Source: a virus
Lineage: Duplodnaviria > Heunggongvirae > Uroviricota > Caudoviricetes
Direction: 5' to 3' (one strand)
DNA length: 8,050 nt
Virus record (IMG/VR): IMGVR_UViG_2695420855_000011
Coordinates: 1 to 8,050 of that record
Translations under genes and position numbers: made by a program
The notes under the pieces: model-generated
Databases searched by the model: none
What the model saw: the letters and a program-made list of their open reading frames with translations, nothing else
Told to the model about the DNA's origin: nothing
Shown here: positions 6,889 through 7,090 of the stretch, piece by piece
Layout of the letters: each line of letters starts with the position of its first letter
How positions within the stretch are numbered: position 1 is the first letter of the stretch

Positions 6889-7090
6889 CCCCACTACTCC
6901 CCACTTTTGCTCCCCACTTTTTGAAATTACCCACCGTCTCCCCACCTCTTTTTTTTGTGATTCTAACGTTATGTTTTTCAATATGTTTTTTACTCCCCAC
7001 TTTTTTGGGTATATACAGGTGGGAAAGTGGGTAATTATGTTTCAATTTTGTTAAATTCCCCACTCCCCCCACTTTTACTCCCCACTTTTT
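6889..7090. repeat. Iteron array (TCCCCAC-TTTT; about 9 direct and 2 inverted copies) flanking a 44-bp AT-rich stretch; putative replication origin
   Basis: CCCCAC-type copies at about 6889, 6898, 6912, 6930, 6940, 6995, 7058, 7067 and 7079; inverted GTGGG at 7019 and 7027; AT-rich core 6947-6990. It directly follows the helicase gene stop. Confidence 0.55.

What the first reader, a model, noticed from the sequence alone, without database searches (positions are those of the whole stretch)
6889..7090. Iteron-type origin immediately 3' of the helicase gene
About nine direct and two inverted copies of TCCCCAC(TTTT) flank a 44-bp AT-rich tract (6947-6990) directly after the helicase stop. This matches the origin layout of SaPI/PICI-type islands, where iterons bound by the element's own initiator flank an AT-rich unwinding region next to the rep gene. 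Here the cognate helicase gene is 5'-truncated, so the origin may be orphaned or served in trans.
Basis: partly seen in the sequence, partly recalled or inferred. Interest (0 to 1): 0.55.

Follow-up and report, generated by a model that had tools for sequence, protein, structure and literature searches.

The report
Orphaned replication origin of a PICI satellite
The repeats are real and are almost certainly the replication origin of a known E. coli phage satellite island (EcCI11368.1 type); here a deletion has removed most of the helicase gene that would fire it, so this is an ordinary, already described kind of origin.

Summary
Observation confirmed. Nine direct and two inverted CCCAC-core repeats lie in 6888-7085, seven of them exact TCCCCAC (0.77 expected in the whole window). 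They flank a 44-bp, 80% A+T tract and start 4 nt after the helicase stop codon.

Interpretation supported. The window is E. coli chromosomal DNA between tRNA-Pro/yejM and yejO. The island is the EcCI11368.1 type of PICI catalogued by Fillol-Salom 2018, who described this origin layout for E. coli PICIs and tested it in EcCICFT073.

Comparative evidence:
- The same layout follows the helicase stop in 13 E. coli relatives and most of 77 Enterobacterales loci.
- The repeat core changes in concert within each element (GTGGGGA, GTGAGGA, GTGCGGC, GTGGGGGC, GTGGGGGA).
- One helicase residue tracks the core (H, N, S, H, K). It sits at the start of the recognition helix of a predicted C-terminal winged helix.
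- Helicase and repeats are exchanged between islands as one cassette.

The truncation is an internal deletion that joins integrase codon ~143 to helicase codon ~288. The locus is a tandem of two decayed island copies with no intact helicase, so this origin is intact in sequence but orphaned in cis.

Novelty is low. No replication or binding experiment was possible.

The parts
6888..6945 (-). Distal iteron cluster. Five direct copies: TCCCCAC at 6888, 6898, 6911 and 6939, plus the variant TACCCAC at 6928. They read GTGGGGA in the sense of the genes. The last copy abuts the ATG of orf81.
   Evidence: the same cluster of 3-5 copies is present in relatives
6947..6990 (.). AT-rich spacer (44 bp, 80% A+T), a candidate unwinding element.
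   Evidence: the equivalent spacer in 62 relatives has median length 49 bp and median A+T 0.76, against 0.575 for the whole region
6994..7033 (.). Dyad core. One direct iteron (6994-7000), the TATATAC box (7010-7016), and two inverted iterons (GTGGG at 7019 and 7027).
   Evidence: in 70 classified relatives the inverted copy is always present, the gap to the next direct copy has a median of 26 bp, and it contains TATA in 64 of 70
7034..7056 (.). Second A+T-rich spacer, between the dyad and the proximal cluster.
   Evidence: 30-mer starting at 7030: -32.2 kcal/mol
7057..7085 (-). Proximal iteron cluster. Three direct copies at 7057, 7066 (variant CCCCCAC) and 7079. It starts 4 nt after the helicase stop codon.
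7089..7626 (-). 3' remnant of the RepA-family helicase gene (residues 288-466 of 466). It keeps the last 28 residues of the AAA_25 ATPase domain, a beta-rich domain and the C-terminal winged helix. The Walker motifs are lost.
7092..7280 (-). Predicted C-terminal winged-helix domain (fragment residues 117-179). The codon of His442 (fragment residue 155), which covaries with the iteron core, is at 7164-7166.
7627..8050 (-). Second copy of the integrase 5' end (first ~143 codons, 100% identical to 3322-3745). It is joined out of frame to the helicase remnant at 7626|7627.
6642..6887 (-). orf81 (phrog_1231, function unknown), the conserved gene just downstream of the origin. It is followed by an intrinsic terminator at 6623-6606.
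   Evidence: it stays conserved (86%) when the helicase-origin cassette is swapped, so it is not the iteron reader

Best explanation
The 200-bp stretch between the helicase gene and orf81 is the vegetative replication origin of a phage-inducible chromosomal island (PICI) of the EcCI11368.1 type.

Proposed mechanism:
1. After induction the island expresses a 466-aa RepA-family hexameric helicase that also acts as the initiator.
2. Its C-terminal winged helix reads the repeat AAAGTG-N-GGA. The residue at the start of the recognition helix (His442 here) reads the variable fourth base, G here.
3. Proteins bound to the two outer clusters and to the central pair of opposed repeats load helicase rings on either side of easily melted DNA. 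That DNA is the TATATAC box and the A+T-rich spacers.
4. No DnaA box or IHF site is involved.

Shown by computation: the repeats, their position, their conservation, their concerted variation, their covariation with one helicase residue, the winged-helix fold, and the exchange of helicase plus repeats as one cassette.

Inferred: binding, melting, ring loading and origin firing.

State of this copy: the origin sequence is intact, but a deletion has removed the ATPase part of the helicase. The neighbouring tandem copy lacks the whole replication module. This origin therefore cannot fire unless a helicase of the same specificity (His442 type) is supplied in trans by another island.
For: (a) The repeats are far beyond chance and confined to this spot.

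(b) Position. In 373 of 5426 complete E. coli genomes a similar stretch lies under or next to a 'helicase RepA family protein' gene. Among 77 helicase relatives from other Enterobacterales, the 300 bp after the stop codon has the highest 7-mer repeat count of the roughly 6-kb locus in 57.

(c) The layout is conserved. After the stop come 2-3 direct copies, then an inverted copy, then a 26-bp gap with TATA (64 of 70 loci), then one direct copy, then a spacer of about 49 bp rich in A+T, then 3-5 direct copies.

(d) Concerted change. All copies in an element, including the inverted ones, switch together. The cores are GTGGGGA, GTGAGGA, GTGCGGC, GTGGGGGC and GTGGGGGA.

(e) Covariation. Helicase residue 442 is H in 11/11 GTGGGGA loci, N in 28/31 GTGAG loci, S in 7/7 GTGCGGC loci, H in 2/2 GTGGGGGC loci and K in 26/26 GTGGGGGA loci. 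Within E. coli the H/N switch occurs on two different, nearly identical backgrounds: MKHFRRWLYKLE versus MKNFRRWLYKLE, and TKHLKRWLAKLE versus VKNMRRWLAKLE. L002 and L003 are 97% identical in the C-terminal domain.

(g) Cassette exchange. L100 has the same island backbone, but the helicase (from about codon 50) plus the whole repeat region is replaced. The replacement is a D5_N-type Pri-Rep, 97% identical to that of EcCICFT073, with TCTACC repeats. Homology resumes exactly at the orf81 ATG (window 6888). DUF4222 (88%) and orf81 (86%) stay conserved.

(h) Literature. E. coli PICI origins are two iteron sets flanking an AT-rich region 3' of pri-rep, and the EcCICFT073 pri-rep-ori fragment drives plasmid replication (PMC6092414). 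SaPI Reps read iterons downstream of rep through a C-terminal winged helix (PMC9371898).

(i) Orphan state. The window equals L101 15376-7327 with 2 mismatches in 8050. No intact helicase is called anywhere in that tandem locus.
Against: - No experiment was done: binding, melting and replication are all inferred.
- Covariation is partly confounded by shared ancestry between genera. Only the E. coli switches are clearly independent.
- One exception exists. L007 has His442 next to GTGAG repeats, though its helicase is an annotated pseudogene fragment.
- L003 has a mixed origin, with GTGAG proximal copies and mostly GTGGGG distal copies.
- The A+T-rich spacer is not A+T-rich in two iteron classes, C and D, at about 0.55.
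- I could not see Fig. 2a of Fillol-Salom 2018, so I do not know whether this exact iteron was drawn there.
Confidence: 0.85

Rival explanations
1. The repeats are operator sites. A regulator, or the helicase acting as a repressor, binds them to control transcription of the downstream orf81/terS/capsid genes. On this reading the array is a promoter-operator region, not an origin.
For: - The array sits between two genes and directly upstream of orf81.
- The conserved TATATAC box resembles a -10 element.
- GGGGAG in the repeat resembles a ribosome-binding site.
- An initiator that also autoregulates through its iterons is known for iteron plasmids (my own knowledge).
Against: - No sigma-70-like promoter is found on either strand of 6500-7300.
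- TATATA lacks the invariant final T of a -10 element.
- The array stays with the helicase, not with the downstream genes, when cassettes are exchanged.
- It is present in relatives with quite different downstream genes, such as ssb, PerC, Mor and ProQ.
- Eleven phased copies with an A+T-rich centre exceed what an operator needs.
- This rival is not exclusive: a regulatory side role remains possible.
Confidence: 0.07
2. The repeats are the packaging (pac) site, recognised by the island's own small terminase. The terS gene lies about 700 bp downstream.
For: - A terS (Terminase_2) gene and a capsid gene follow in the same orientation.
- Small terminases bind repeated short motifs (my own knowledge).
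Against: - The same array, at the same distance from the helicase stop, occurs in relatives with no terS (L004, L007, L093). It also occurs in islands with other packaging modules.
- The repeat core covaries with a helicase residue.
- In L100 terS is unchanged while the repeats are replaced together with the helicase.
Confidence: 0.02
3. The region is a small protein-coding gene. Some pipelines call a 62-aa ORF here, and the window lists a 77-aa ORF at 6884-7117 on the minus strand. On this reading the repeats are only a repetitive peptide.
For: - An ORF of 62 aa is called over the repeats in L095, L099 and L101.
- The ORF listing gives 6884..7117.
Against: - The longest open frame over the region changes strand and frame among relatives. 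It is shorter than 60 codons in 56 of 83 loci.
- Other assemblies of the same island type (L096-L098, L102) have no gene called there.
- The inverted copies and the fixed 26-bp dyad spacing have no coding rationale.
Confidence: 0.02

Closest known systems
E. coli PICI origins, with EcCICFT073 pri-rep-ori as the tested example (Fillol-Salom et al. 2018, ISME J, PMC6092414)
   Same: - Same host and same type of island: int, AlpA-like regulator, Icd-like gene, DUF4222, initiator, origin, orf81-like gene.
- The origin sits directly 3' of the initiator gene, with iteron sets around an A+T-rich stretch.
- The island of this window (EcCI11368.1 type) is listed in their Table S1, and its initiator in their Fig. 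S10.
- L100 carries the CFT073-type replicon in this very backbone.
   Different: - The tested EcCICFT073 initiator is a 584-aa D5_N/DUF5906/Pox_D5 (SF3-type) primase-helicase with TCTACC repeats.
- The initiator here is a 466-aa RepA/AAA_25 helicase with GTGGGGA repeats. The two share only the N-terminal 125 residues, at 65% identity.
- This replicon type has not, to my knowledge, been tested.
SaPI Rep / ori (SaPI1, SaPIbov1, SaPI5; Qiao et al. 2022 NAR, PMC9371898, and the work cited there)
   Same: - The initiator is a self-loading hexameric helicase with a C-terminal winged helix that reads penta- or hexanucleotide iterons.
- Six to twelve iterons lie just downstream of rep, with an A+T-rich centre and iterons in opposite orientations.
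   Different: - SaPI Reps are AAA+ motors (SF3 or SF6/MCM-like) and move 3' to 5'.
- The motor here is RecA-fold and RepA-like.
- There is no sequence similarity and the host phylum differs.
- Here most copies point one way, and only the central pair is opposed.
Satellite phage P4 alpha protein with ori and crr
   Same: - Both are E. coli satellites whose primase-helicase carries a C-terminal origin-binding domain that reads short repeats (my own knowledge; also PMC6092414).
- The island also carries a P4-type immunity region: C4 antisense RNA and isrK, and Icd-like and Ash-family genes.
   Different: - P4 alpha is a D5_N/SF3-type protein (my own knowledge), not a RepA-type one like this helicase.
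- P4 needs a second cis site, crr, about 4.5 kb away (my own knowledge). No second GTGGGGA cluster exists in the intact island.
- There are no sid, psu or delta genes.
RSF1010 RepA helicase (PDB 1G8Y)
   Same: It is the only solved structure with detectable sequence similarity to the motor domain (residues 148-320, E = 0.013). Both belong to Pfam AAA_25.
   Different: RSF1010 RepA is a helicase only. Origin recognition there is done by a separate protein, RepC (my own knowledge). Here a winged helix is fused to the helicase.

Membership tests
PICI/SaPI-type replication origin | Lies immediately 3' of the initiator (rep or pri-rep) gene | tested here: met
   The first repeat starts 4 nt after the helicase stop codon at 7089-7091. 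The same holds in L001-L007, L088-L093 and most of L008-L087.
PICI/SaPI-type replication origin | Two sets of short iterons flanking an A+T-rich region | tested here: met
   Five copies lie in 6888-6945, the 80% A+T tract in 6947-6990, and six copies in 6994-7085.
PICI/SaPI-type replication origin | Iterons on the two sides point in opposite directions (SaPI description, PMC9371898) | tested here: inconclusive
   Not met around the 44-bp tract, where the copies on both sides are direct. Met around the TATATAC box, with two inverted copies on one side and direct copies on the other.
PICI/SaPI-type replication origin | The initiator-helicase carries a C-terminal winged helix that recognises the iterons | tested here: met
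PICI/SaPI-type replication origin | A rep-ori fragment drives autonomous replication, and deleting ori reduces it | not testable with these tools
   Shown only for the EcCICFT073 replicon type, which is a different initiator family.
PICI (the island as a whole, Gram-negative type) | Island of about 8-15 kb with an integrase at one end, in an attachment site of its own, and without lysis or tail genes | tested here: met
   The intact relative L001 runs from int to capsid, about 8.5 kb, between tRNA-Pro/yejM and yejO. Its coordinates in strain 11368 (H28) overlap EcCI11368.1 of Table S1.
PICI (the island as a whole, Gram-negative type) | AlpA-type activator after int | tested here: inconclusive
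   The 68-aa HTH protein matches Phage_AlpA at E = 0.0028 and 17.9 bits, below the 21-bit cut-off. The paper lists an AlpA for EcCI11368.
PICI (the island as a whole, Gram-negative type) | Excision, replication and packaging induced by a helper phage | not testable with these tools
   No experiment was possible.
Capsid-forming PICI (cf-PICI) | A complete capsid and packaging module: portal, protease, capsid, connectors and large terminase | tested here: not met
   Only terS and a 308-aa capsid-family gene are present.
P4-like satellite | Alpha-type (D5_N) primase-helicase, a two-part ori/crr origin, and sid/psu/delta genes | tested here: not met
   The helicase is AAA_25 only. There is no second repeat cluster and no such genes are annotated. 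The P4-type C4 RNA and isrK are present.
Iteron plasmid origin (DnaA-dependent, Rep_3-type initiator) | DnaA boxes and often an IHF site next to the iterons, with a Rep_3/RepA winged-helix initiator that has no helicase | tested here: not met
   There is no DnaA box with up to 1 mismatch and no IHF consensus in 6889-7090. The initiator is a helicase.

The most novel reading that the evidence does not exclude
The locus may be a two-part satellite rather than mere wreckage. It is a tandem of two complementary half-size deletion derivatives, 4305 bp and 4449 bp, whose sum of 8754 bp is close to the roughly 8.9-kb intact island.

One half keeps the integrase and the regulatory/immunity region. The other keeps the origin, terS and capsid. 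Neither has a helicase.

If the intact integrase excises the pair as one unit, it would be capsid-length. Its intact origin could then be fired in trans by a His442-type helicase from a co-resident island, so the pair would parasitise another satellite. The retained 179-aa winged-helix fragment might also compete for such origins.
Probability: 0.08. Interest if true: 0.6.

Novelty: already known. Interest (0 to 1): 0.25.

Why it matters
As an origin it adds little. PICI origins of this layout are published, and this island is already catalogued.

Three points go beyond the catalogue entry:
- This replicon uses a RecA-fold RepA-type motor fused to a winged helix. The studied SaPI Reps (AAA+) and the tested EcCICFT073 Pri-Rep (D5_N-type) use a different kind of motor, so the same initiator logic has been assembled on two unrelated motors.
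- A single residue at the recognition helix (H/N/S/K) tracks the variable base(s) of the iteron core (GTGGGGA, GTGAGGA, GTGCGGC; K goes with the five-G core GTGGGGGA). This is a simple, testable specificity code. It would define which co-resident satellites can cross-fire each other's origins.
- Helicase and origin move between islands as one cassette with sharp boundaries.

These are hypotheses from comparison only.

Tried and rejected
- Junction search. I searched for the 7626|7627 junction (30-mer) in viral contigs and metagenome contigs and found nothing. No complete E. coli genome spans it either. The source arrangement was found instead through the exact capsid protein.
- Rfam found nothing in the repeat region, only C4 and isrK elsewhere. 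There are no tRNAs in the window.
- Promoter scan found none in 6500-7300.
- No DnaA box or IHF consensus lies in the region, so a DnaA-dependent iteron-plasmid origin is rejected.
- A coding reading of the repeats is rejected because no frame is conserved.
- A pac-site reading is rejected because the array follows the helicase, not terS.
- DUF4222 and orf81 are rejected as the iteron readers, because they stay conserved when the repeats are swapped.
- Assembly artefact as the cause of the rearranged window is considered unlikely. A public assembly has the same 8050 bases with 2 mismatches, in chromosomal context.
- Literature searches for the iteron sequence itself found nothing relevant.
- The full-text search for cf-PICI origins gave no description of this replicon.

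Full report
**1. The observation**

The sequence of 6600-7400 shows the motif directly. Exact TCCCCAC occurs seven times on the + strand, at 6888, 6898, 6911, 6939, 6994, 7057 and 7079. It occurs nowhere else in the 8050 bases. The expected number is 0.77, and none of 200 shuffles reaches seven.

With the core CCCAC there are nine direct copies and two inverted ones, GTGGG at 7019 and 7027. The tract 6947-6990 is 44 bp and 80% A+T. It contains the least stable 30-mer of the region.

All genes here are on the minus strand. The helicase-frame ORF ends with its stop codon at 7089-7091, and the first repeat follows 4 nt later. The last repeat abuts the ATG of an 81-codon gene at 6887.

**2. What the window is**

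The ORFs are as follows.

| Coordinates (minus strand) | Product |
|---|---|
| 2504-3763 | tyrosine integrase |
| 5536-6162 | small terminase |
| 4450-5376 | capsid-family protein |
| 7089-7628 | 179-aa fragment that matches only the last 28 residues of the AAA_25 ATPase domain |

Rfam finds a C4 antisense RNA (803-890) and isrK (912-988), which together form a P4-type immunity region.

The window matches an island of E. coli O26, O103 and O111 strains that lies between tRNA-Pro/yejM and yejO. In strain 11368 the match overlaps EcCI11368.1, an 8.5-kb PICI in Table S1 of Fillol-Salom et al. 2018. In intact copies the gene order is int, HTH regulator, Icd-like, Ash-family, small ORFs, DUF4222, a 466-aa 'helicase RepA family protein', the repeat region, orf81, two small ORFs, terS and capsid.

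The window is not collinear with that order.

| Window segment | Content |
|---|---|
| 1-239 | second copy of the capsid 3' end |
| 240-3983 | regulatory region, integrase and attachment site |
| 4382-7626 | island right end through capsid, terS and origin to helicase codon ~288 |
| 7627-8050 | second copy of the first ~143 integrase codons |

The stretch 3964-3983 carries the tRNA-Pro-derived core GGCACGAGAG, joined to the right-end arm. This is an attP-like junction between two copies.

The arrangement is real. A 628-kb contig of assembly GCA_001285965.1 (L101) contains all 8050 bases with two mismatches, between yejM and yejO. The locus is therefore a tandem of two decayed copies.
- The copy next to tRNA-Pro has lost everything from integrase codon ~143 to helicase codon ~288.
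- The second copy has lost everything from a small ORF upstream of DUF4222 to the capsid 3' end. That includes the helicase and the origin.
- No intact helicase is called anywhere in L101.

The integrase fragment reads into the helicase remnant out of frame. Intact single copies that are about 100% identical to the window parts exist, for example L097.

**3. Is the repeat array tied to the helicase?**

A similar stretch is found in 373 of 5426 complete E. coli genomes, in the listed hits under or beside a RepA-family helicase gene. In 170 of them it is at least 99% identical.

I read thirteen E. coli relatives. I also read 77 usable loci from other Enterobacterales that were found with the helicase protein.
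- In 57 of the 77, the 300 bp after the helicase stop has the strictly highest 7-mer repeat count of the locus. The median is 5, against 3 for the best other 300-bp window in the locus.
- The layout is the same everywhere. After the stop codon come 2-3 direct copies, a spacer, one or two inverted copies, a gap of 26 bp that contains TATA in 64 of 70 loci, one direct copy, a spacer of about 49 bp, and then 3-5 direct copies.
- That last spacer has median A+T of 0.76, against 0.575 for the region as a whole. It is not A+T-rich in two of the five iteron classes.

**4. Concerted change and a reader residue**

The repeat core differs between elements. Within an element it is normally the same in all copies, inverted ones included; L003, and to a lesser degree L002, mix two cores. 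A single alignment column of the helicase, residue 442 in the 466-aa protein, tracks the core.

| Repeat core | Where seen | Residue 442 |
|---|---|---|
| GTGGGGA | window, Kluyvera, Pantoea, Kosakonia | H in 11/11 |
| GTGAGGA or GTGAGTA | Xenorhabdus, several E. coli | N in 28/31 |
| GTGCGGC | (not recorded) | S in 7/7 |
| GTGGGGGC | (not recorded) | H in 2/2 |
| GTGGGGGA | (not recorded) | K in 26/26 |

The three exceptions in the GTGAG class are two truncated C-termini and one annotated pseudogene, L007.

Between genera this covariation is confounded by descent. Inside E. coli the H/N switch occurs twice, on near-identical backgrounds. The two pairs are MKHFRRWLYKLE versus MKNFRRWLYKLE, and TKHLKRWLAKLE versus VKNMRRWLAKLE. 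L002 and L003 are 98% identical in the ATPase domain and 97% in the C-terminal domain, yet differ at residue 442 and in their proximal and dyad repeats.

**5. The fold**

An AlphaFold model of the 179-aa remnant was built with 34 aligned homologues. It has mean pLDDT 79.9, and about 95 over the last 60 residues. Those residues form three helices and a beta hairpin.

Residue 442 is residue 155 of the remnant, encoded at 7164-7166. It immediately precedes the third helix (156-165), the usual recognition helix. The nearly invariant K154, R158, W159 and K162 lie on or next to that helix. Asn pairing with A, and His or Lys with G, fits common protein-base contacts. That last point is my own knowledge, not a test.

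**6. Cassette exchange**

L100 has the same island backbone as the window, and its capsid protein is identical. From about helicase codon 50 to the end of the repeat region, however, it carries something else. The replacement is a 584-aa D5_N-type Pri-Rep, 97% identical to that of EcCICFT073, followed by about twelve TCTACC/GGTAGA repeats. Homology to the window resumes exactly at 6888, the orf81 start.

DUF4222 and orf81 stay 88% and 86% identical across the swap, so they are not the proteins that read the repeats. EcCICFT073 itself (L094) has the same TCTACC-type array after its Pri-Rep. Its Pri-Rep shares only the first 125 residues with the window's helicase.

**7. Rivals**

- Operator or promoter: no sigma-70-like promoter lies in 6500-7300. 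An intrinsic terminator follows orf81 at 6623-6606, so orf81 is probably read through from the helicase gene.
- DnaA-dependent iteron-plasmid origin: no DnaA box with up to one mismatch and no IHF consensus lies in the region.
- Packaging site: this does not fit relatives without terS. It also does not fit L100, where terS is unchanged and the repeats differ.
- Small gene: the ORF that some pipelines call over the repeats has no conserved strand or frame.
- P4-type crr: there is no second GTGGGGA cluster in the intact island, so no crr equivalent exists.

**8. Comparison with what is known**

Fillol-Salom et al. 2018 state that the region 3' of the initiator gene in Gram-negative PICIs has two iteron sets flanking an A+T-rich region. 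They state that all the PICIs they identified share this layout. They also show that the EcCICFT073 pri-rep-ori segment drives plasmid replication, and that deleting ori reduces it. Their tables list EcCI11368.1 and its Pri-Rep.

Qiao et al. 2022 describe SaPI Reps as self-loading helicases whose C-terminal winged helix reads iterons just downstream of rep.

The finding therefore belongs to a described kind, in a catalogued island. Two things differ from the tested examples.
- The motor is RepA/AAA_25, with weak similarity to RSF1010 RepA (E = 0.013). The tested examples have SF3 or SF6 AAA+ motors.
- The particular repeat differs.

I found no paper in the searchable library that describes this repeat or the residue-442 relation. 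Figure contents are not searchable, so this does not prove absence.

**9. Verdict**

My confidence that this is the island's replication origin, read by the helicase's winged helix, is about 0.85. In this locus the origin is intact in sequence but has no helicase in cis. Novelty is low and interest is 0.25.

Noticed in passing
window 1-239 = 4450-4688, and 3322-3745 = 7627-8050; junctions at 239|240 and 7626|7627; L101 7327-15376: The window is a tandem of two different deletion derivatives of one island, with unit lengths of 4449 and 4305 bp. The units sum to 8754 bp, against about 8.9 kb for the intact island. Their contents are complementary: integrase plus regulation in one, origin plus terS plus capsid in the other. 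The same arrangement is present in assembly GCA_001285965.1. How it arose is unexplained.
   Followed up: partly
window 4208-4252 (+): Five copies of GTCAC lie at exactly 10-bp spacing (4208, 4218, 4228, 4238, 4248), about 200 bp beyond the capsid stop and near the island's right end. The stretch 4094-4381 has no counterpart in L001, although it is present in L095 and L097. Its function is unknown; it may be a protein-binding array or a packaging site.
   Followed up: partly
window 3856-3956, 2026-2042 and six other sites: TCCGGTG occurs 10 times (0.86 expected). Three copies are 10 bp apart at 3930, 3940 and 3950, next to the attachment core, and two lie at 2026 and 2036. An IHF consensus sits at 3898-3910. 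These are probably recombination-directionality or integrase arm sites.
   Followed up: no
window 803-890 and 912-988 (-): A C4 antisense RNA (77.6 bits) and isrK (66 bits) lie side by side. This is a P4-type RNA immunity region inside an island classed as a PICI. The 409-codon 'ORF' at 557-1786 that covers them is probably not a gene.
   Followed up: no
L003 (NZ_CP035850.1), 300 bp after the helicase stop: This is a hybrid origin. The proximal and dyad repeats are GTGAGG, matching its Asn442, while three of the four distal repeats are still GTGGGG. This suggests recombination inside the origin, or conversion in progress.
   Followed up: partly
L007 (NZ_CP122768.1) 2198-2605 and downstream: A helicase pseudogene fragment with His442 sits next to GTGAGG repeats. 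It is the only mismatch to the residue-repeat rule, and a D5-type primase gene lies upstream. This looks like another decayed or recombined replicon.
   Followed up: partly
L008-L087: Helicase relatives come in three lengths: about 350-380, about 455-470 and about 680-700 aa. I take the longest form to carry an N-terminal primase-type extension, but I did not scan it. All three lengths have the same downstream repeat layout. The first 125 residues of the 466-aa form are shared (65%) with the unrelated D5-type Pri-Rep of EcCICFT073, which suggests a common N-terminal module.
   Followed up: no
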